Shown piece after piece: positions 340 to 8,851 of a stretch of DNA of 64,000 nt (its first letter is position 1; the number at the start of each line of letters is the position of its first letter). The stretch lies in NCBI GenBank assembly GCA_903915465.1, contig CAIWTA010000120.1, positions 591 to 64,590 on the forward strand, given 5' to 3'. The notes under the pieces are model-generated. The model was not told where the DNA came from. It was given only the letters and a program-made list of their open reading frames with translations, and ran no database searches. The DNA comes from an uncultured Bacteroidales bacterium (GTDB lineage: Bacteria; Bacteroidota; Bacteroidia; Bacteroidales; FEN-979). The translations under genes and the position numbers were made by a program.

Positions 340-555
340 ATGTCACATACACATTACTCAGGAGATCCAAGACAGATCACAGCCCGTTTCCCATCAACCT
401 GTCACACCTGCAGCAAACCGATCAAAAAGGGTGAAACCATTATCTACTGGCCAAACGGCAAAAAGGCCGGCCATTACGACTGCGATATCCAGGATTACCG
501 CCAGTCAATAGCTTCCTTCGAAGACGAAGATCGCTATAATAATGTTTATCACTGA
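340..555 (+). CDS. Small hypothetical protein with CxxC...HxxC (zinc-ribbon-like), ICE-associated
   Basis: 71-aa ORF preceded by the leader box and followed by the hairpin+T terminator at 563-597. Cys/His pairs are STCHTC and GHYDCD. Confidence 0.5.
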   Translation: MSHTHYSGDPRQITARFPSTCHTCSKPIKKGETIIYWPNGKKAGHYDCDIQDYRQSIASFEDEDRYNNVYH

Positions 556-1425: not shown

Positions 1426-1643
1426 GTCGTAAAGTGATTCAATGAATTAAGGACAAGCCATCACTATTGATCATCTTATTGAATCACTGGTTTTTGATTT
1501 CTCGGTTTTTTACGCTAATCAGAAATGATAAAAATAGGAAAAATGGATTATTCAATTAAGGAAAGAAAGAATATGTTTACGTAAATTCGCAATGTTATGA
1601 AAGATGGTTTTTCATTGAATTTGATAACTTAAGTGTACTTCAT

Positions 1644-2276
1644 ATGTCAGCAACTAACTATGAATACGATGTTTTTATCAGTTATAGAAGAACTGATACT
1701 GGGACTTTTTGGGTCAAGGAGTATTTTAAACCACGATTAGAGGAAGAAATACAACAAGCTTATGGAGGACCTGTTAAAATATTTTTCGATTCAGCTGATA
1801 TCCCAGTCGGTGCAAATTGGCCTAATACAATAAAAACAGCGTTGGCTACTTCACGTTGCATTGTCCCTGTGTTTTGTGGATTGTATTTTCAATCAGAGTG
1901 GTGTGTACGTGAGTTTGCGGTGTTTCATAATCGTCAGGAGATATTAAATCAGGGGAGAGTCATTAATCCTTATGAAATAATTCTCCCTGTTCTGGTAAGA
2001 GATGGCAATCACCTTCCACAGTCAGTCAATAGAATATTTAAATCTGTATTGAAAGATTATTTTACCGGTTGTGTTTCGTTTCGAACTTGCCCAGATTATA
2101 GAGATTTTGAAAGGGAGATTGTCAAACTTGCAGATGAAATTAGCAATGCGTTGAAAACGAAAACCCCAGTATGGGACAAGAGGTGGCTTTTAAATGAATG
2201 GTTAGATGAAGTCCCCATTAATCATTTTTTAAATCAAAGACCAGTTGTACTCCAAGAAAATCCTACATTAAAATGA
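1644..2276 (+). CDS. Stand-alone TIR domain protein
   Basis: YDVFISYRRTD start motif and SEWCVREF helix with a candidate catalytic Glu (codon 90, nt 1911-1913). The stop overlaps the next start (ATGA at 2273-2276). Confidence 0.85.
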   Translation: MSATNYEYDVFISYRRTDTGTFWVKEYFKPRLEEEIQQAYGGPVKIFFDSADIPVGANWPNTIKTALATSRCIVPVFCGLYFQSEWCVREFAVFHNRQEILNQGRVINPYEIILPVLVRDGNHLPQSVNRIFKSVLKDYFTGCVSFRTCPDYRDFEREIVKLADEISNALKTKTPVWDKRWLLNEWLDEVPINHFLNQRPVVLQENPTLK

Positions 2277-5149
2277 GCAATATAATTACTTTCTATTCAT
2301 ACAAAGGAGGCGTTGGAAGATCAATGGTTCTTGCCAACGTTGCAACGATGTTATCCAAATGGGGATTCAAAACCTTGATTGTCGATTTTGATTTGGAAGC
2401 CCCCGGTCTCCATTATTTTTTTAATTCTCAAATCAGAAATTTCAATGATCTTGGAAAAAGAAAGGGCATGTTGAATTTCTTAAATCAGGATCATAAGAAC
2501 CCTCGATTAAAATGGCAAGACCTTGTTGTTCCCATAATTATTCAACCAACTAGCAAGGAAAAAAACATCAATCCCAGTACAATTGATTTAATTCTTGCTG
2601 GTAACAAAGGTGAATCAAGTTATACCAATGAATTAAAGAAGTTTAATGCAAGAAATTTCTATAAGAACCATAATGGTAGTATGGTTATCGAAAAATTACG
2701 TGATGATTGGAAAAATAGCTATGATTTTATCCTTATTGATTCAAGAACTGGAGTCACAGATATTGGTGGAATATGCACTATTCAATTACCGGATATTCTC
2801 GCTACTTTGTTTACCGCAAATGAACAGGGTTGGATAGGAATAAAAGACATTACTGTTAAAGCAATAAAAAATCACAATGACATTCCTTTTGAAAGGGAAA
2901 GGTTAAAAGTTTTTCCCATTCCGACACGTATTGATAATACTGAAAAATTACTTACTGAAGAATGGCTTAAAAGATTTTCTGAAGAGGTAAAGTCAATTAT
3001 AGGCAATTGGATACATACTGAAATAAACATTAGGCAATTTATTGATAAAATTTATGTGCCTTATATCCCTTATTATAGCTTTGGTGAAAGACTTTCTGTT
3101 CTTGATGGTACATCAGATCCTAAGGGTATTGGCTATGCTTTAACAACAATAGCTTCATTACTTGCAAATAGATTAGTGGATAGCAAGCTGTTTTTTGATT
3201 CTCGTGATGAGTATATTCGGAAGATTGAAAATTCAATCAAAGAGAGACAGTCAGCAGAAATAATGAATGATAGTAGATTAAATACAGTTAAACTATCTGT
3301 TATTGGAGAATCCGCCTCAGGAAAATCCACATTAATAGACGCCTTGTTTTTCAATAATATTCAATCATATGATTTGGAGTCAACACATGGTTTAGAGACA
3401 ACAAAATATATTTTTAAATCAAAAAATGAAAATTACCGCATTAATATATGGGATTTTGGAGGGCAGGAAATTTATTCGGGCATCTATCAATTTTTCCTCA
3501 CAAAAGGATCGATAATATTGTTAGTGCTAGATTCTAGAAACATAGAACTCTCTTTACAAATCGAAAACTGGTTGGCAACCATAAATTTGTTAACAGAATC
3601 TAGTCAAATTTTTATATTCCTTAATGACAAAATAAAATCATCCAGACCCACTGGTTTCGATTCATTAATGTTTCAAAAAAATTATCCAAACGTTAAAGTG
3701 TTTACAGGAAGTATTCGTGAAACCGAGACAACTGAATTATTAAGAGATGAAATAGAAAAGGTTGTCACATCTTTTCCTTCTGTTATTATACCAAGGTCTT
3801 GGAGAAACATTCTAGACAAAATTGATAATATTGTTGATTCCTGCTCATATATTTCCCTCGCTGAATTTTCAAATATATGTAAAGAGTTTGGTGGAATTAA
3901 TGATAGTGATCAAGTGTTAGAAATAACTTCCTTATTTCATAGTAATGGTACTATAATTCATTATCAGGATGATTCTTATCTGAAAGATTATATTTTTATT
4001 CGTATAGGTTTAATAATAAAAGCTGTTTATAAAATATTTGAAGATAGTAATTTGATTAACGTTTCTAAAGGGTATTTTGATCAAAAGGACCTTGAAAAAA
4101 TTTTGAATGATGAGGAATTTAAGGACCTTCATTATGCAATTTTAAAATTAATGTTAAAATTTGAACTTGCTTATACATTTAATAATCAACAATTAGAGAA
4201 ATATCTTATTCCACAATTATTATCGCCAATACAACCCGATTATAATTGGGAATCGTTTAACACGTTGCACTTTATTTACCAATATGAAGTTGTTCCCAAG
4301 GGGCTACTAAATAAACTAATTATCAGGTTGCAGCATTTGATTACTGATTCTAAACTATTATGGAGAAATGGTTTTGTTGTAACATATGAAGAGAGCAAGG
4401 GTGAGGTTATTGAAGATTTTTCCAAAAGAAAAATTATGGTAAAAACTAATGGCATAAATAGTAAAAGCTTATTAATTAATATTTCAAATGAAATTGATAC
4501 GATTAACAATGAATACGCTTTGCTTAAATGTGAAAAATTGATACCATGTAATTGCAAAGAATGTCAATCAATAGAAAATCCATTCTATTTTAGTTATGCT
4601 ACTCTGAATAGTTATTTGCAGCACAAAATGCATGAGGTACCTTGTCCGAACTCATCTTTAATGATATCAATTCGAGATCTCATTGAACCATTTTCAAAAT
4701 TTGAAGTAGGTAAAAACAGAAAGAAATCACCAGTGAATATTTTCATATCATATGCTCATGAAGACCTTGATATGAAGAATAGTATTGAAAAATATTTATG
4801 GCCTCTTAAAAAAGATCAAAATGTTTCTATTTGGTTCGACCAGATGATTGAACCTGGAACAAATTGGAAAAATGAAATTCAACAAAAAATGTCAGATTCA
4901 GATATAATAATTTGCATTGTAAGTGCTGATTATTTAAGTAAAGATTATATTTGGGAATTGGAATTAAAAGATGCCTATGCGCGAAACAAAAAGATAATTC
5001 CAGTAATCTTAAGGCCTTGCCTTTGGGAGGATACCATTTTAAACAATTTTAGTGCGTTGCCTAATCAAGGAAAGCCGATTTCAAAATTTGAAGATAAAGA
5101 TGAAGCCTTCAATGAAATTGCGAAAAACCTAAAAATATTAATTGAATAG
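2273..5149 (+). CDS. Multidomain protein: KGGVGR-type ParA/MinD-like ATPase - Roc GTPase - COR - Cys cluster - TIR
   Basis: aa 1-300: SYKGGVGRS, VDFDLEAPGL, FILIDSRTG. aa 338-500: GESASGKST, WDFGGQE, LNDK. aa 505-755: COR-like (LFHSNGTIIHYQDD, LIPQLL, LWRNGFVV). aa 753-791: CxxxxxCxCxxC...C. aa 820-958: TIR (VNIFISYAHED, DYIWELEL). Confidence 0.85.
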   Translation: MSNIITFYSYKGGVGRSMVLANVATMLSKWGFKTLIVDFDLEAPGLHYFFNSQIRNFNDLGKRKGMLNFLNQDHKNPRLKWQDLVVPIIIQPTSKEKNINPSTIDLILAGNKGESSYTNELKKFNARNFYKNHNGSMVIEKLRDDWKNSYDFILIDSRTGVTDIGGICTIQLPDILATLFTANEQGWIGIKDITVKAIKNHNDIPFERERLKVFPIPTRIDNTEKLLTEEWLKRFSEEVKSIIGNWIHTEINIRQFIDKIYVPYIPYYSFGERLSVLDGTSDPKGIGYALTTIASLLANRLVDSKLFFDSRDEYIRKIENSIKERQSAEIMNDSRLNTVKLSVIGESASGKSTLIDALFFNNIQSYDLESTHGLETTKYIFKSKNENYRINIWDFGGQEIYSGIYQFFLTKGSIILLVLDSRNIELSLQIENWLATINLLTESSQIFIFLNDKIKSSRPTGFDSLMFQKNYPNVKVFTGSIRETETTELLRDEIEKVVTSFPSVIIPRSWRNILDKIDNIVDSCSYISLAEFSNICKEFGGINDSDQVLEITSLFHSNGTIIHYQDDSYLKDYIFIRIGLIIKAVYKIFEDSNLINVSKGYFDQKDLEKILNDEEFKDLHYAILKLMLKFELAYTFNNQQLEKYLIPQLLSPIQPDYNWESFNTLHFIYQYEVVPKGLLNKLIIRLQHLITDSKLLWRNGFVVTYEESKGEVIEDFSKRKIMVKTNGINSKSLLINISNEIDTINNEYALLKCEKLIPCNCKECQSIENPFYFSYATLNSYLQHKMHEVPCPNSSLMISIRDLIEPFSKFEVGKNRKKSPVNIFISYAHEDLDMKNSIEKYLWPLKKDQNVSIWFDQMIEPGTNWKNEIQQKMSDSDIIICIVSADYLSKDYIWELELKDAYARNKKIIPVILRPCLWEDTILNNFSALPNQGKPISKFEDKDEAFNEIAKNLKILIE

Positions 5150-5194
5150 TTATATATATTTCGATTAATCACCCTGAGAAACAATAATAAAATT

Positions 5195-5863
5195 ATGAAT
5201 TTTCTAATTGTTATGAGTATGACAAATAGCTATTATTTTTTTTTTAGCGATCAACAAGCTGAAACAAAATATTCAATTGAGCCACTTTGGTGGTTGTTAA
5301 TAATTGTAGCTGCTATTATCTTGGTTGGGGGTCTATATTGTTTTTTTAGTAGAAAGAAGTATCGGATTGTGAATATGGGCTTCGAGGTATCTGGAAGCCC
5401 CAAATTTACTTTTAATGTTGAAAGGAATACCCAAAATTTATATATAGCGAATCGCATCTATATGGAGTTAATTACTCGTAAAGCCGCACTTGAATTTGAA
5501 GAGGACAAAGATGTTATTATAGAAGTATATAATTCATGGTATAAACTATTTAACATTATTAGAGAAGAAATCAAAAATGTGCCTGGCGATTATTTAATAA
5601 ATCATGATTCATCAAAAGCTCTTATAGGTTTAACTGAAAAAATTTTAAACCTAGGCCTACGACCTCATTTAACAGCCTATCAGGTAAAATTTAGAAAATG
5701 GTATACTTCGGAAACAAAAAAGCTTACAAACATGAACCTTACTCCACAAGAAATTCAAAAAACGTATCCCTATTATGCTGATCTTGTTGTTGATTTGAAA
5801 AAAGTAAATAAAGTATTAATTGATTATTCAAAAGATTTATTAACTCTTATTCAGAAAAATTAG
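5195..5863 (+). CDS. Membrane-anchored protein of unknown function (one TM helix, helical C-terminal domain)
   Basis: 222-aa ORF 45 nt after the ROCO-TIR gene, with the same strand and AT-rich composition. TM helix LWWLLIIVAAIILVGGLYCFF is followed by SRKKYR. The start could be an internal Met. Confidence 0.6.
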   Translation: MNFLIVMSMTNSYYFFFSDQQAETKYSIEPLWWLLIIVAAIILVGGLYCFFSRKKYRIVNMGFEVSGSPKFTFNVERNTQNLYIANRIYMELITRKAALEFEEDKDVIIEVYNSWYKLFNIIREEIKNVPGDYLINHDSSKALIGLTEKILNLGLRPHLTAYQVKFRKWYTSETKKLTNMNLTPQEIQKTYPYYADLVVDLKKVNKVLIDYSKDLLTLIQKN

Positions 5864-6027
5864 TAGTATTGTAGTCTTTTTTTAATTATCTTCCTATAGA
5901 AATGTTTTCCATCGATTTGATTCAACGAGAATTTAGTTGTTTCATGCTTTTATGGATTTTAACTGATAGAAACTAGTCAATTATCTTTTCACGATTGAAA
6001 AATCACCTATTGCACTCTAATGTTATT

Positions 6028-6963
6028 TTACAAAATAGATGTATTAAAAATTATATTATCAAACAGTATCTTATTTCCAAATTTAGCGTAAAGTATTTTA
6101 TTTTCAGTTTCATCTAAATAGGTTCGACCAAGATCATCTTTTGCAATGCTTACTTGAATGCCTGAACTTTCTAATATCAAGACGTCTGGATTTATTAAAT
6201 AAGCTGCAGCAAGTGGATCCCATGCAAAATATAAATTATCATATATCCAATTCTCAACATTTTTAAGAATTGAGTATGTTATTTTGTTTTTTCTATTCTT
6301 CCATTTACTAAATACTAAATAGCTCTTATCAATTTTAATGGAATTAGACGCATCTAAAGGAACCAAAATAATATTTTTTAAATAGCTTAGACAAATCTTA
6401 GCTGCCAAAGGATCACAATAAAAGTTCCATTCTGAAAACCTGTTTTTTGTTTCATTAATTTCATTGTCGAAAAGATTTCCTTCAACACTAATTGCTCCAC
6501 CCATTATGATTGTGGTAATGGATCTGAGCTTTCCCATCCTATCATTAACAATAAGATTTTCAATATTTGTCAACGGTCCTAAAGTCAGTAGAAACTGATT
6601 ATTCGCTTTGAAAGAATTTAAAATATTTATAGCATCAAATTCTAGAATTCGTTTATTTCCTGAATTAATATTTAATACTTTATATCCTACTTCAGTTGAT
6701 TGCTGCTTCCAACTTTTAGGAAAGAAATTAGTCTTACCTAGTGAATCACTTTTGCCTATATAAATAGGGGTATTTATATGCCCATAATAATCTAGAAGTC
6801 TTCGAATTATTTGAGCACCATCCTTAGGTTCAGTCAACCCATGAACACATGACACACCTATAATTTCAATATTTCTTGAATTTAATAATAGATCTATGGC
6901 GATTAGATCATCAGTTCCACAATCGGTATCTATAAAGACATGTTTTACTTCAACTGAGCACAT
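6028..6963 (-). CDS. Inosine-uridine-preferring nucleoside hydrolase (IUNH) family protein
   Basis: N-terminal VFIDTDCGTDDLIAIDLLL matches the DxDxxxDD fingerprint of IUNH-family ribohydrolases. Length is 311 aa. Confidence 0.8.
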   Translation of the reverse strand: MCSVEVKHVFIDTDCGTDDLIAIDLLLNSRNIEIIGVSCVHGLTEPKDGAQIIRRLLDYYGHINTPIYIGKSDSLGKTNFFPKSWKQQSTEVGYKVLNINSGNKRILEFDAINILNSFKANNQFLLTLGPLTNIENLIVNDRMGKLRSITTIIMGGAISVEGNLFDNEINETKNRFSEWNFYCDPLAAKICLSYLKNIILVPLDASNSIKIDKSYLVFSKWKNRKNKITYSILKNVENWIYDNLYFAWDPLAAAYLINPDVLILESSGIQVSIAKDDLGRTYLDETENKILYAKFGNKILFDNIIFNTSIL

Positions 6964-7058
6964 AAATGGGTAGATAATTATGATTTTATATATTTAGAAG
7001 AATATTCTAAATTCGAGAGTAACATGAATTGTTATATTAAGTTGTAAAAATCAGTGAA

Positions 7059-8480
7059 TTAATCGAGTCTCCAGATTTTATTAATTTGCTGGAATTGCGT
7101 TATGATATAATCAAATGGTAAATTCTTTCCGATTTTTGCAATTTCAATATTTAGCACATTTGATGGGACAAGTAAGTCAGGATGACCCCATGGTCTTTCG
7201 ACTTCTTGTCTTGGACTAAAAATCCAAATTGTTTTAAGACCAAGATTTTTTGCAGGTATAATATCTTTTTCTAATGAGTCACTTATAATAGCTATTTCAT
7301 CAGGAGGGAAATTGAATTCTTCAATTACCTTAAGCAGCAATTCTATCTTTAGTCCTGTTTCATCTGTACTATCACCAGACACAATTAAATCAAATAGATC
7401 TGGTTTTAAATCAAGCAATTGCATTCTTAAATCGAGGGTAGAAGGGGAAGCGTTAGTAGCTATGGCTGTTTTAATTCCTTTTATTTTCGCTTTGAAAAGA
7501 TATTCCTGAACCCCAGGGAATAAATGGATATAGCGTGAATTTTCATAATGAACCCTTTTAAAATCTTTAAATGAAAGACCAAGGGTCAAGCAATGTTGGA
7601 GATAGTCGTACCATAACCTATCCTTTTTATCAAAAAGATCTTTTAGCCATTTGTGATATTCTTTAGCCTCTTCTTTATTTCTGGGTATACTAACGCACAA
7701 GGCATCATCAAATGAATCTTCTTCGACCAATGTTTTACGCCAATCGAAGATTATTAGTTTTGGCAAGGTTGGTGGTGTAAGATAAATATCGTGGTTATTG
7801 AGGTTAAAATTTGGTGAATATGTTACAATTTGCCAAATCCTTTCTTTAGATATTTGAGTATATGATGAAATTGCCTCAATACTAAAACGATTTTCACATA
7901 CTATTGCAAATTGTATTGCTGCCTCTTCAGGAAAAAGAAATGCTCTATTTTCCAAAGTAATTATTCCCAAATGAGCATCAGATTTAACATCAAAGAAGAG
8001 TTTTGGAGGGATTACTATTTTATTTAGTTTATCTATTCTGTCACTACGAAGAAATTGCTTTAGTAAATCAAACCTATTTATTGTAACCGTTGGTTTACCT
8101 TTAAGTTGCTGTACGAGTTTTTCCAAATTCAGCGAATAGTCATCACCAAATATGTCAAAACACTTTCTATGGGAAAGAATTGGAGGTAGGGGCACAAAAT
8201 CCAGTCTTGCAGGAATAACCTTTATTGTGGAATTGAGGTGTTCTTTCATTAAGGCAGTTGCCCATTCCTCTTGTATCCAATTATTTTTCTCAGTATTTTT
8301 TGAGAAAAAAACAAGTAAATATTTAGCATTATTTATAGCCTTCGAAATTGACAAAGGAATTGAATCTCCGAACAAAATCTCATCTTCATCAAGCCAAAAA
8401 TCAATATCATATAAACGTAAGTCCTTTGCGATTTTCCTTATTGCGTTTATGTCAGCTGATGCATGTGAGATAAATATCAT
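7059..8480 (-). CDS. TIR domain - linker - HAD-superfamily hydrolase-like fusion protein
   Basis: N-terminus MIFISHASAD...NNWIQEEW (TIR). C-terminus has LIIFDWRKT (HAD motif I with Arg at D+2), IATNAS (motif II) and ISDSLEKD (motif IV). Confidence 0.8.
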   Translation of the reverse strand: MIFISHASADINAIRKIAKDLRLYDIDFWLDEDEILFGDSIPLSISKAINNAKYLLVFFSKNTEKNNWIQEEWATALMKEHLNSTIKVIPARLDFVPLPPILSHRKCFDIFGDDYSLNLEKLVQQLKGKPTVTINRFDLLKQFLRSDRIDKLNKIVIPPKLFFDVKSDAHLGIITLENRAFLFPEEAAIQFAIVCENRFSIEAISSYTQISKERIWQIVTYSPNFNLNNHDIYLTPPTLPKLIIFDWRKTLVEEDSFDDALCVSIPRNKEEAKEYHKWLKDLFDKKDRLWYDYLQHCLTLGLSFKDFKRVHYENSRYIHLFPGVQEYLFKAKIKGIKTAIATNASPSTLDLRMQLLDLKPDLFDLIVSGDSTDETGLKIELLLKVIEEFNFPPDEIAIISDSLEKDIIPAKNLGLKTIWIFSPRQEVERPWGHPDLLVPSNVLNIEIAKIGKNLPFDYIITQFQQINKIWRLD

Positions 8481-8698
8481 ATGGGATTTTTTATCAATAT
8501 TATTGTTTTATAACATTTTACATGGTAAATTTATAGAAATTTTATTGTGAATATCCAAATTCTTTATAACTATTTATATAGACCTATTAGCATAATCCTT
8601 GTATTAACCTGATTAATATATTTAAGGAATTTTGCCCTTCTTAATTCTCGAATTACACTTACACTTCGACTTCACTTTGTAAAAGGAAATTATATATT

Positions 8699-8722
8699 TT
8701 TGGATACCCATTTGGATACCCA
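8699..8722. repeat. Tandem 12-mer tttggataccca x2
   Basis: Exact tandem duplication immediately distal to the tRNA-Leu terminator, at the island edge. Confidence 0.8.
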
Positions 8723-8754
8723 AAAAAGAAAAACCCACGATTGACGTGGGTTTT
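8721..8754 (-). terminator. Rho-independent terminator of tRNA-Leu
   Basis: On the minus strand: AAACCCACG, loop TCAAT, CGTGGGTTT, then TTCTTTTTT. Confidence 0.65.
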
Positions 8755-8767
8755 AGTGGTGTTTTCG

Positions 8768-8851
8768 TACCCGGAGCCGGAATCGAACCGGCACGAGATT
8801 ACTCTCATTGGTTTTTGAGACCAACGCGTCTACCTATTCCGCCATCCGGGC
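8768..8851 (-). tRNA. tRNA-Leu (anticodon CAA), type II with long variable arm, no encoded CCA
   Basis: Reverse complement is GCCCGGATGGCGGAATAGGTAGACGCGTTGGTCTCAAAACCAATGAGAGTAATCTCGTGCCGGTTCGATTCCGGCTCCGGGTA. It has an acceptor stem, D loop, anticodon stem TTGGT/ACCAA with loop CTCAAAA, and T arm GGTTCGATTCC. Confidence 0.9.

What the first reader, a model, noticed from the sequence alone, without database searches (positions are those of the whole stretch)
2273..5149. Two different P-loop NTPases in one ROCO polypeptide, both with non-canonical nucleotide motifs
The N-terminal ParA/MinD-like module keeps the signature Lys (K11) but has Arg where the P-loop Lys normally sits (KGGVGRS, R16). 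The Roc module has a normal G1 (GKS) and G3 (DFGGQ). However, the region where NKxD (guanine specificity) is expected reads FLNDKIK. Downstream of COR is a five-Cys cluster (C753, C759, C761, C764, C791) that could bind a metal. ATPase-GTPase tandems feeding a TIR are unusual. One module may be a sensor or pseudo-enzyme and the other the switch. ParA-like proteins commonly bind DNA non-specifically in the ATP form, which suggests a route to sensing incoming DNA. That last point is inference only.
Basis: partly seen in the sequence, partly recalled or inferred. Interest (0 to 1): 0.7.

Follow-up and report, generated by a model that had tools for sequence, protein, structure and literature searches.

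The report
TIR partner plus ParA-like/Roco switch protein

Summary
ORF 2273-5149 encodes a ParA/MinD-like module (aa 1-320, KGGVGRS), Roc (G1 and G3 intact, G4 = NDKIK), COR-A, COR-B and a C-terminal TIR.

None of the three oddities is private to this protein:
- **Arg P-loop.** It defines NCBIfam NF047398, "KGGVGR-motif variant AAA ATPase". It was present in every family member I examined. The signature Lys, the switch-I DxD and the Walker-B Asp are also kept.
- **G4.** It belongs to a Roc clade whose G4 is N-E-K-x-D. This protein has additionally lost the Asp.
- **Cysteines.** Four of the five form CxCxxC-x26-C, found in 52 of 52 COR-B domains of that clade.

The main new result concerns the neighbouring gene. 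In 83 loci from at least eight phyla, a roughly 200-aa ORF abuts the KGGVGR gene start, and 71 of these are TIR proteins. Window ORF1 (1644-2276) is one of them. ORF3 is not conserved.

The most likely reading is a two-gene TIR conflict system in which nucleotide-dependent ParA-like and Roc-COR dimerisation switches control TIR NADase assembly. It sits in a low-GC island beside tRNA-Leu. The mechanism is inferred, not shown. The DNA-sensing idea has no family-wide support.

The parts
1644..2276 (+). ORF1: a 210-aa TIR protein. It is the conserved partner gene, and its stop overlaps the ORF2 start by 4 nt (ATGA).
   Evidence: Pfam TIR_2, E 1.6e-13. Orthologues (38-50% identity) sit in the same position in L001-L003. 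71 of 83 ORFs upstream of KGGVGR genes are TIR_2. E90 aligns with the Glu of the WCLxEL motif in plant TIRs L6 and Roq1.
2273..5149 (+). ORF2: 958 aa, with the order KGGVGR ParA-like module, Roc, COR-A, COR-B, TIR.
   Evidence: The full-length AF2 model has pLDDT 88.1 and pTM 0.58.
2273..3232 (+). KGGVGR-motif variant ParA/MinD-like module, aa 1-320.
   Evidence: NF047398, 148 bits. Family conservation extends to about aa 311-320. Soj/ParA/MinD fold. 2140 clusters at 50% identity match at E<=1e-30.
2303..2323 (+). Deviant Walker A, KGGVGRS: signature Lys K11 and Arg R16 in place of the P-loop Lys.
   Evidence: K11 and R16 are invariant in 81 of 81 genome-locus proteins. 131 of 136 further representatives carry KGGxGR[ST] and none has Lys at that position.
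2384..2410 (+). Switch-I-like DFDLEAPGL; D38 and D40 are invariant.
   Evidence: It aligns with the D-x-D of MinD.
2735..2752 (+). Walker B / switch II, IDSRTG; D156 and R158 are invariant.
   Evidence: It aligns with DSPAG of Aquifex MinD.
3278..3787 (+). Roc G-domain, about aa 336-505. G1 is GESASGKS (nt 3305-3328) and G3 is DFGGQ (nt 3452-3466).
   Evidence: Pfam Roc, 67.7 bits. Alignments to 4wnr and 3dpu. Foldseek match to MbRoco2, TM-score 0.85 normalised to the target.
3620..3637 (+). G4 region LNDKIK. It is the clade-type N-[DE]-K-x-D with the final Asp replaced by Lys.
   Evidence: Beta-strand 445-451 ends at N451 in the model.
3791..4222 (+). COR-A, aa 507-650.
   Evidence: Pfam PF16095, 103.5 bits.
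4259..4687 (+). COR-B, aa 663-805.
   Evidence: Pfam PF25497, 109.6 bits. Foldseek match to the CtRoco COR domain 3dpt, TM-score 0.83 normalised to the target.
4547..4645 (+). Cys4 motif C759-x-C761-xx-C764-x26-C791 inside COR-B. It is a candidate structural metal site.
   Evidence: It is conserved in 52 of 52 COR-B domains of the N-E-K clade, with a spacing of 25-28 residues. The region has pLDDT above 90. Metal binding was not tested.
4736..5134 (+). C-terminal TIR domain, aa 822-954. The candidate catalytic residue is E897.
   Evidence: Pfam TIR_2, 63.6 bits. PADLOC ThsB model PDLC00420, E 3.9e-31. E897 aligns with the Glu of the YEL motif in AbTIR.
5195..5863 (+). ORF3: 222 aa with one predicted N-terminal TM helix. 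It lies on the same strand, 45 nt downstream. It is probably not part of the core system.
   Evidence: No family hit in Pfam, NCBIfam, PADLOC or PHROGs. It is absent downstream of the three closest homologues.

Best explanation
ORF1 and ORF2 form a two-gene TIR-based conflict (probably anti-phage, abortive-infection) cassette carried on a low-GC island.

ORF2 is the large regulatory subunit. Its N-terminal module is a ParA/MinD-type ATPase variant. It keeps everything needed for a nucleotide-sandwich dimer (signature Lys, Ser17, switch-I Asp-x-Asp, Walker-B Asp) but always has Arg instead of the P-loop Lys. I infer that it binds nucleotide and dimerises but hydrolyses slowly or not at all.

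The Roc-COR tandem is a second nucleotide-dependent monomer/dimer switch. It occupies the slot that NACHT, NB-ARC or LRR-Roc-COR modules occupy in paralogous family members. Its G4 lacks the guanine-reading Asp, so base specificity, and perhaps nucleotide cycling, is relaxed.

I propose that a trigger shifts these dimerisation switches. That brings the C-terminal TIR of ORF2 and the separately encoded TIR of ORF1 into an active TIR oligomer. The oligomer then degrades NAD+ or makes an NAD-derived signal and stops growth of the infected cell.

**Shown here:** the domain identities, the motif states, their conservation, the folds, the conserved TIR/KGGVGR gene pair, and the island context.

**Inferred:** nucleotide binding, dimerisation, TIR activation, and the defence role.
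For: - **Domains and motifs:**
- **Catalytic set of the N-module:** K11, R16, D38, D40, D156 and R158 are invariant in 81 genome-derived family members and in 49 protein hits. Such conservation argues for a working nucleotide pocket, not a decayed one.
- **Arg is fixed:** none of about 200 members examined has Lys at the P-loop position.
- **Fold:** ParA/Soj/MinD. The hits include BcsQ, a relative crystallised in complexes with ATP or ADP (PDB titles). From memory, BcsQ also has a degenerate Walker A; this was not checked here.
- **Gene pair:** an ORF of about 190-260 aa abuts the KGGVGR gene in 83 loci from Bacteroidota, Planctomycetota, Acidobacteriota, Actinomycetota, Cyanobacteria, Chloroflexota, Myxococcota and Pseudomonadota. 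71 of these are TIR_2. The pair is present in all three closest homologues, with a 4-nt overlap.
- **TIR active sites:** both TIRs keep the Glu at the catalytic position.
- **Swappable second module:** the KGGVGR module is fused to TIR, NACHT, NB-ARC, TPR, LRR-Roc-COR and EAD domains. In L006 and L007, an LRR-Roc-COR-TIR gene lies immediately upstream of a short ORF plus a KGGVGR gene, which is a split version of the same arrangement.
- **Island context:** GC 0.27-0.35 against about 0.42 in the flanks, next to tRNA-Leu, with an anti-restriction gene fragment on the other side, and with two further TIR genes.
- **Literature:** Kaur et al. 2020 (PMC7159879) place MinD/ParA-like domains and COR-linked "AP-GTPases" in NTP-dependent conflict systems.
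Against: - No biochemical or phage-challenge data exist for any family member that I could find (literature searches).
- Kaur et al. predicted the MinD/ParA-like domains of conflict systems to be inactive.
- The PADLOC hit to the N-module is only to a candidate model (PDC-M28B), and its partner A was not found.
- The full-length model has pTM of only 0.58, so inter-domain geometry is unknown.
- The C-terminal TIR is not conserved among the closest homologues. P0003 lacks it, and P0002 and P0004 have only a weak or no TIR hit. It is therefore unclear which TIR is the effector.
- The trigger is unknown.
Confidence: 0.5

Rival explanations
1. Pseudo-enzyme scaffold. The KGGVGR module no longer binds or turns over nucleotide. 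It serves only as a fixed adaptor or dimerisation platform that docks the partner TIR. All switching is done by Roc-COR, or by NACHT and similar modules in paralogues.
For: The canonical P-loop Lys is missing in every member. Kaur et al. 2020 call the MinD/ParA-like domains of conflict systems inactive. The module always co-occurs with another, more canonical NTPase or with a TIR.
Against: A dead pocket would be expected to drift. Instead K11, S/T17, D38, D40, D156 and an extra invariant R158 are fixed across at least eight phyla. From established knowledge, not tested here: Arg can still contact phosphates, and Walker-A K-to-R mutants of P-loop NTPases usually still bind nucleotide.
Confidence: 0.2
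2. Thoeris-like signalling pair. ORF1 TIR is the sensor and signal generator. The Arg-containing P-loop pocket of the KGGVGR module has been re-tuned to bind the NAD-derived product, such as an ADPR or cADPR isomer or conjugate, instead of ATP. Ligand-induced dimerisation then activates the downstream modules.
For: The TIR gene and the KGGVGR gene are strictly coupled, whatever is fused downstream. The K-to-R change and the extra R158 next to Walker B are invariant and family-specific. The C-terminal TIR resembles ThsB models. The pairing of a TIR producer with a nucleotide-pocket receptor is how Thoeris works (established knowledge).
Against: There is no direct evidence. No SLOG, Macro or other known ADPR-signal receptor is present. 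Many family members carry their own TIR right after the module, which fits TIR-TIR co-assembly at least as well.
Confidence: 0.15
3. DNA sensor. The ParA-like module binds incoming DNA non-specifically in its nucleotide-bound dimer form, and this licenses TIR activation.
For: The fold matches DNA-binding Soj and ParA proteins, including DNA complexes 5u1j and 8jmj. The window copy of the module is basic, with pI 8.9.
Against: Across 81 family members the module is acidic (median pI 5.1; only 2% are above pI 7.5). The high pI here is probably due to Lys enrichment in a 30%-GC gene. MinD, BcsQ and FlhG match about as well as the DNA-binding ParAs, and they do not bind DNA. The conserved partner is a TIR protein, not a ParB-like DNA-binding protein.
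Confidence: 0.08
4. Not an immune system. The cassette is a regulatory or developmental cell-fate module, for example kin-selected cell death or stress signalling, unrelated to phage.
For: The family is rich in Actinomycetota, Cyanobacteria, Myxococcota and other complex bacteria. That is the distribution Kaur et al. 2020 tie to multicellularity-linked conflict systems (abstract).
Against: The window copy sits in a low-GC island at a tRNA gene, with other TIR genes and next to an anti-restriction gene fragment. Architectures vary greatly among close relatives, which is typical of arms-race genes.
Confidence: 0.1

Closest known systems
NCBIfam NF047398, 'KGGVGR-motif variant AAA ATPase' (domain model); apparently the same kind of domain as the 'inactive MinD/ParA-like domain' of conflict systems in Kaur et al. 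2020, eLife (PMC7159879)
   Same: Residues 3-194 score 148 bits against a cut-off of 90. The KGGVGR motif sits at the extreme N-terminus. The fold is ParA/MinD. The module is fused to TIR and second-NTPase modules.
   Different: The family is catalogued but has no described function. Its fusion to a bare Roc-COR tandem (without LRR) followed by a TIR was seen in only a handful of metagenomic proteins (P0002-4, P0009, P0014, P0020, P0025/26, P0051). I found no description of the near-universal upstream TIR gene.
Prokaryotic Roco proteins (Chlorobium tepidum Roco, PDB 3dpu/6hlu; Methanosarcina barkeri Roco2, PDB 4wnr) and LRRK1/2
   Same: The Roc-COR-A-COR-B tandem is present. G1 and G3 are intact. 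Foldseek gives E 1.8e-28 to 3dpu and a TM-score of 0.85 (normalised to the target) to 4wnr.
   Different: G4 is NDKIK instead of NKxD, and G5 is GSI instead of SCK. A Cys4 motif in COR-B is absent from CtRoco. There are no LRRs or kinase. An N-terminal ParA-like module and a C-terminal TIR replace them.
Cyanobacterial-type LRR-Roc-COR-TIR proteins (for example Nostoc 'COR domain-containing protein', P0033, P0038, P0040)
   Same: They belong to the same Roc-COR clade, with the N-E-K-x-D type G4, CxCxxC-x26-C in COR-B, and a C-terminal TIR.
   Different: They have LRRs in place of the KGGVGR module. Most keep the G4 Asp that the window protein has lost.
NLR-like STAND-TIR defence proteins (Avs, bNACHT and TIR-STAND types)
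   Same: The logic is the same: an NTPase oligomerisation switch coupled to a TIR effector. Paralogous KGGVGR proteins actually contain NACHT or NB-ARC in the place of Roc-COR.
   Different: There is no STAND domain here. Switching would rely on SIMIBI-type and Ras-type dimerisation, not on AAA-like ring assembly.
Thoeris (ThsB TIR plus ThsA effector)
   Same: It is a small TIR protein encoded next to a larger nucleotide-binding protein. The C-terminal TIR hits a PADLOC ThsB model (E 3.9e-31).
   Different: There is no SIR2, SLOG or Macro ThsA. The partner is a ParA-like/Roc-COR protein.
MinD-MinC/MinE and ParA-ParB pairs; BcsQ-BcsR
   Same: It is a deviant-Walker-A SIMIBI fold with a signature Lys. 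A small partner protein is encoded adjacently.
   Different: The P-loop Lys is replaced by Arg. The partner is a TIR enzyme. The scores do not reach any MinD or ParA equivalog cut-off (for example TIGR01968, 28 bits against 212.9).

Membership tests
KGGVGR-motif variant AAA ATPase (NCBIfam NF047398) | HMM score above the curated cut-off (90 bits). | tested here: met
   148.3 bits, E 3.2e-43, aa 3-194 matching profile positions 3-186 of 190.
KGGVGR-motif variant AAA ATPase (NCBIfam NF047398) | K-G-G-x-G-R-[ST] in place of the deviant Walker A K-G-G-x-x-G-K-[ST]. | tested here: met
   KGGVGRS at aa 11-17. R16 lies opposite the P-loop Lys of MinD and CapB.
KGGVGR-motif variant AAA ATPase (NCBIfam NF047398) | ParA/MinD (SIMIBI) fold. 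| tested here: met
   AF2 model with pLDDT 88.7 and pTM 0.90. Foldseek hits to Soj, ParA and MinD at probability 1.0, TM-score up to 0.77 normalised to the target.
KGGVGR-motif variant AAA ATPase (NCBIfam NF047398) | Nucleotide binding or hydrolysis. | not testable with these tools
   Only the conservation of K11, S17, D38, D40 and D156 can be shown.
TIR + KGGVGR two-gene cassette (defined empirically here) | A TIR gene of about 200 aa immediately upstream on the same strand. | tested here: met
   ORF1 at 1644-2276 overlaps the ORF2 start by 4 nt. 71 of 83 related loci have a TIR_2 ORF in that position.
Roco proteins | A Roc domain directly followed by COR (COR-A plus COR-B). | tested here: met
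   Pfam Roc at aa 340-451, COR-A at 507-650 and COR-B at 663-805, all above their gathering scores. Structural match to 3dpu, 4wnr and 3dpt.
Roco proteins | Canonical guanine-nucleotide motifs G1, G3, G4 (NKxD) and G5 (SxK). | tested here: not met
   G1 and G3 are canonical. G4 is NDKIK and G5 is GSI. This lowers the claim that it is a GTP-specific GTPase. It does not lower the architectural membership.
Canonical ParA/MinD ATPases | P-loop Lys in the deviant Walker A, and a score above the equivalog cut-offs. | tested here: not met
   Arg at position 16. TIGR01968 MinD scores 28 bits against 212.9, and NF041546 ParA scores 17.9 against 180.
Thoeris | A ThsB-type TIR protein. | tested here: met
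   PADLOC PDLC00420 ThsB, E 3.9e-31, on aa 822-954.
Thoeris | A ThsA effector (SIR2, TM or Macro with a SLOG-type signal receptor) in the operon. | tested here: not met
   No such domain in ORF1, ORF2, ORF3 or the two convergent genes.
STAND/NLR-like defence proteins (Avs, bNACHT) | A NACHT, NB-ARC or other STAND NTPase domain. | tested here: not met
   No STAND family hit in ORF2. Paralogous KGGVGR proteins do carry PF05729 or PF00931.
PADLOC candidate system PDC-M28 | Both the M28A and M28B proteins are present. | tested here: inconclusive
   The M28B models hit aa 4-213 (E 1.6e-22) and aa 2-53. No M28A hit was found among the window neighbours or among 83 upstream ORFs. The definition of M28A is not available to me.

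The most novel reading that the evidence does not exclude
The TIR + KGGVGR gene pair is a widespread, unstudied immune cassette, with thousands of 50%-identity clusters across at least eight phyla. In it, a ParA/MinD-type sandwich-dimer module with an obligatory Arg P-loop would act as the central receptor or switch for a TIR enzyme. Either it plays the part that STAND NTPases play in NLRs, or its re-tuned phosphate pocket binds the TIR-made NAD-derived signal. Roc-COR, NACHT or LRR modules would be interchangeable add-ons. That would be a third class of NTPase switch, SIMIBI-type, driving TIR immunity.
Probability: 0.3. Interest if true: 0.75.

Novelty: new variant of a known kind. Interest (0 to 1): 0.5.

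Why it matters
TIR enzymes are central to immunity in bacteria, plants and animals. The known ways of switching them on are STAND/NLR oligomerisation, Thoeris-type signalling, and CBASS- or CRISPR-linked filaments.

This locus points to a large family in which a TIR is genetically tied to a ParA/MinD-like module. That module has a fixed Lys-to-Arg P-loop change, and here it is combined with a Roco GTPase tandem of the LRRK2 type.

If the family is shown to defend against phage, it would add a new kind of switch to TIR immunity. It would also give a tractable bacterial system for two questions: what an Arg P-loop does in a SIMIBI ATPase, and how Roc-COR dimer cycling can gate an effector.

For this particular finding the value is more modest.

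Tried and rejected
**Literature**
- Searches for KGGVGR, PDC-M28, Roco with anti-phage, MinD/ParA with TIR, and FxsC/SCO2523 found no study of this family. The only relevant text was the passing mention of inactive MinD/ParA-like domains and COR-linked AP-GTPases in PMC7159879.
- A search for a described metal site in COR-B found nothing relevant.

**Ideas tested and dropped**
- Misalignment as the explanation of the odd motifs. HMMER alignments to solved MinD, CapB, MbRoco2 and CtRoco, a 69-domain Roc alignment and the AF2 secondary structure all agree.
- ORF3 as a system component. It is not conserved and has no family.
- The upstream TIR as PDC-M28A. There were no hits.
- DNA binding as a family trait. 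The pI survey argues against it.

**Technical dead ends**
- Model coordinates are not exposed, so I could not measure Cys-Cys distances or inspect the G4 pocket.
- The window's own genome is not among the GTDB representatives scanned, so the host is only inferred to be a Bacteroidota-like organism from its closest relatives.

Full report
**What is there.** The window has a 958-aa ATG ORF at 2273..5149 (+). Profile searches give five domains, all above their curated cut-offs:
- NCBIfam NF047398, "KGGVGR-motif variant AAA ATPase", aa 3-194, 148 bits against 90.
- Roc, aa 340-451.
- COR-A, aa 507-650.
- COR-B, aa 663-805.
- TIR_2, aa 823-920. A PADLOC ThsB-type TIR model extends this to aa 822-954.

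**The ParA-like module.**
- *Motif alignment.* HMMER alignments to solved structures place KGGVGRS opposite the GKGGVGKT of MinD and the GAGKS of CapB. K11 is therefore the signature Lys and R16 replaces the P-loop Lys. D38-x-D40 matches the MinD switch-I Asp pair, and IDSRTG matches the Walker-B DSPAG.
- *Fold.* An AF2 model of aa 1-335 is confident (pLDDT 88.7, pTM 0.90). Its best PDB matches are Soj, ParA, MinD, FlhG and BcsQ, at probability 1.0 and with TM-score up to 0.77 normalised to the target.
- *Extent.* The conserved module is longer than the NCBIfam model. Family conservation runs to about aa 311-320.
- *The Arg is a family hallmark.* All hits in the homologue search that carried the module had KGGxGR[ST], nearly always within the first 20 residues. 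All 81 proteins from genome loci had it. Of 136 further cluster representatives, 131 had it, one had RGGxGRT and four showed no motif. None had Lys at that position.
- *Family size.* An exhaustive HMMER scan found 2140 clusters (50% identity) at E<=1e-30 and 5833 at E<=1e-10.
- *Other invariant residues.* K11, G12, G13, G15, D38, D40, D156, S157, R158, T159 and G160 are invariant alongside R16. A pocket this conserved is unlikely to be dead. I infer nucleotide binding with slow or no hydrolysis. The general behaviour of Walker-A K-to-R mutants is established knowledge and was not tested here.
- *Prior literature.* Kaur et al. 2020 mention MinD/ParA-like domains in NTP-dependent conflict systems and predict them to be inactive (PMC7159879).

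**The Roc module.**
- *Canonical parts.* G1 (GESASGKS) and G3 (DFGGQ) are canonical.
- *G4 and G5.* Against MbRoco2 and CtRoco, LN-KID aligns with LNDKIK and the G5 SCK aligns with SIR.
- *Two Roc clades.* An alignment of 69 Roc domains from the homologue list shows two clades. One is mostly cyanobacterial-type LRR-Roc-COR-TIR proteins, plus the window protein and its closest relatives. Its G4 is N-[DE]-[KR]-x-D, with consensus KNEKQDR, so one acidic residue is inserted into NKxD. The other clade has N-K-x-x and usually lacks the Asp as well (for example NKIKEH).
- *The window protein.* It belongs to the first clade but has Lys where that clade has Asp. Several relatives have also lost the Asp (P0003 NEKFG, P0024 NDKYG).
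- *Register.* In the AF2 model, strand 445-451 ends at N451. No Asp falls at the guanine-reading position in either register.
The new point is that the variant is clade-wide and only the loss of the Asp is specific to this protein. Base specificity cannot be predicted from sequence.

**The cysteines.** The motif C759-x-C761-xx-C764-x26-C791 lies inside the Pfam COR-B match. It occurs in 52 of 52 COR-B domains of the N-E-K clade, with a spacing of 25-28 residues. It is absent from the N-K clade and from CtRoco. C753 is not conserved. The region is modelled with pLDDT above 90. A structural metal site in the COR-B dimerisation subdomain is plausible, but it was not tested. I found no description of it in the literature.

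**Context and partner gene.**
- *Closest homologues.* The three closest homologues (P0002-P0004, 37-40% identity) each have a TIR gene of about 205-220 aa upstream that overlaps their start by 4 nt. These TIRs are orthologous to window ORF1 (1644..2276), with 38-50% identity over the full length, a shared C-terminal extension, and a tail ending NPTL[KR] in three of the four (NPVLK in L002).
- *Whole family.* A scan of species-representative genomes returned 80 KGGVGR loci. They come from Bacteroidota, Planctomycetota, Acidobacteriota, Actinomycetota, Cyanobacteria, Chloroflexota, Myxococcota and Pseudomonadota. In 83 loci in all, a same-strand ORF ends close to the KGGVGR start, between 19 nt of overlap and about 60 nt upstream in most loci and up to 187 nt in a few. 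71 of these ORFs hit Pfam TIR_2 at E<=1e-3. TIR followed by KGGVGR-X is therefore a conserved two-gene cassette, whatever X is.
- *What X can be.* X varies: TIR, NACHT, NB-ARC, AAA_16, TPR, LRR-Roc-COR, EAD, PNP_UDP, metallophosphatase, CHAT, FGE-sulfatase and pentapeptide repeats. A second NTPase next to the KGGVGR module is common, so the tandem is not exceptional.
- *A split version.* In two Chitinophagales MAGs, an LRR-Roc-COR-TIR gene lies directly upstream of a short ORF plus a KGGVGR gene.
- *ORF3.* The window ORF3 (5195..5863) has one TM helix and no family hit. It is absent from related loci.
- *TIR active sites.* Both TIRs keep the Glu at the catalytic position. ORF1 E90 aligns with the WCLxEL Glu of L6 and Roq1. 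ORF2 E897 aligns with the YEL Glu of AbTIR.

**Island.** GC falls from about 0.44-0.49 to 0.27-0.35 between about nt 1500 and 8500. The island ends next to tRNA-Leu(CAA) at 8767-8851. The ORF at the left edge of the window is the C-terminal end of an anti-restriction protein family (phrog_7245). The island also holds a convergent TIR-HAD fusion and an inosine-uridine nucleoside hydrolase. This is the setting of a mobile defence island.

**Mechanism (inferred).** The ParA-like module most likely forms a nucleotide-sandwich dimer through K11. The Arg P-loop would make that state long-lived. Roc-COR is a second dimerisation switch; COR is the dimerisation device in CtRoco, as cited. A trigger would change these states and bring the TIR domains of ORF2 and ORF1 together into an active assembly that consumes NAD+ or makes a signal. 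The rivals are:
- a nucleotide-free scaffold;
- a Thoeris-like arrangement in which the Arg pocket binds the TIR product;
- DNA sensing;
- a non-immune role.

The DNA idea is weakened by the acidic character of the module across the family, with a median pI of 5.1 against 8.9 for the window copy.

**Comparison and novelty.** The protein is a member of NF047398 and, by architecture and fold, of the Roco family. It fails the canonical G4 and G5 test. It is not Thoeris, because there is no ThsA. It is not a STAND protein. It is not a canonical ParA or MinD. The PADLOC hit is to a candidate model only (PDC-M28B), with no A partner found. I found no experimental work on the family. I rate it a new variant of a known kind: NTPase-switched TIR systems. 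The interest lies in the uncharacterised TIR/KGGVGR cassette as a whole.

Noticed in passing
window 1500-8851: A low-GC island (GC 0.27-0.35 against about 0.42 in the flanks). It is bounded on the right by tRNA-Leu(CAA) at 8767-8851 (-). On the left, the ORF at 32..274 matches the C-terminal end of an anti-restriction protein (phrog_7245). This looks like the cargo end of an integrative or conjugative element.
   Followed up: partly
window 6028-6963 (-) and 7059-8480 (-): A convergent gene pair: an inosine-uridine-preferring nucleoside hydrolase (311 aa) and a TIR-HAD phosphatase fusion (473 aa). It may be a second system targeting NAD or nucleotides in the same island.
   Followed up: no
window 5195-5863 (+): ORF3: 222 aa, one N-terminal TM helix, and no hit in Pfam, NCBIfam, PADLOC or PHROGs. 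It starts 45 nt after ORF2 on the same strand but is absent from related loci.
   Followed up: partly
window 1644-2276; L001:5336-6004, L002:312-938, L003:482-1096: ORF1-type TIR partners share an extension of about 85 aa after the TIR domain. Three of the four end in NPTL[KR], and L002 ends in NPVLK. This tail could be a docking peptide for the KGGVGR module.
   Followed up: no
L006:5542-10082 and L007: In two Chitinophagales MAGs, an LRR-Roc-COR-TIR gene (799 aa) lies directly upstream of a 227-aa ORF with no Pfam hit, followed by a 480-aa KGGVGR protein. This is a split counterpart of the fused window protein.
   Followed up: partly
L004:4706-8465 (-): Next to the KGGTGR-Roc-COR-TIR gene P0014 lies a second, convergent pair: a 924-aa ParA-like protein with a TIR, and a 331-aa ParA-like protein. 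Paralogous cassettes therefore cluster.
   Followed up: no
L032, L034, L038-L042, L046, L049-L052, L054-L056, L059-L065, L067 (actinomycete loci): The KGGVGR proteins of about 525-565 aa in Amycolatopsis, Lentzea, Saccharothrix and relatives are followed within about 75 nt (usually within about 25 nt) by a conserved ORF of about 200-235 aa. The one example scanned (L039:7641-8243) has no Pfam hit. This may be a three-gene version of the system.
   Followed up: no
Roc domains of P0009, P0011, P0014, P0015, P0036, P0062, P0107: The other Roc clade fused to KGG[TV]GR modules reads NKIKEH or NKILEH at G4. It too lacks the guanine-specificity Asp, and it lacks the COR-B Cys4 motif. Loss of canonical G4 therefore seems common in conflict-type bacterial Roc domains.
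   Followed up: partly
window 340-555 (+): A 71-aa ORF with a CxxC...C/H pattern. It weakly resembles a zinc-finger domain (Pfam zf-Vps39_C, below the cut-off) and hits phrog_1581, of unknown function. It is probably part of the mobile-element backbone.
   Followed up: no
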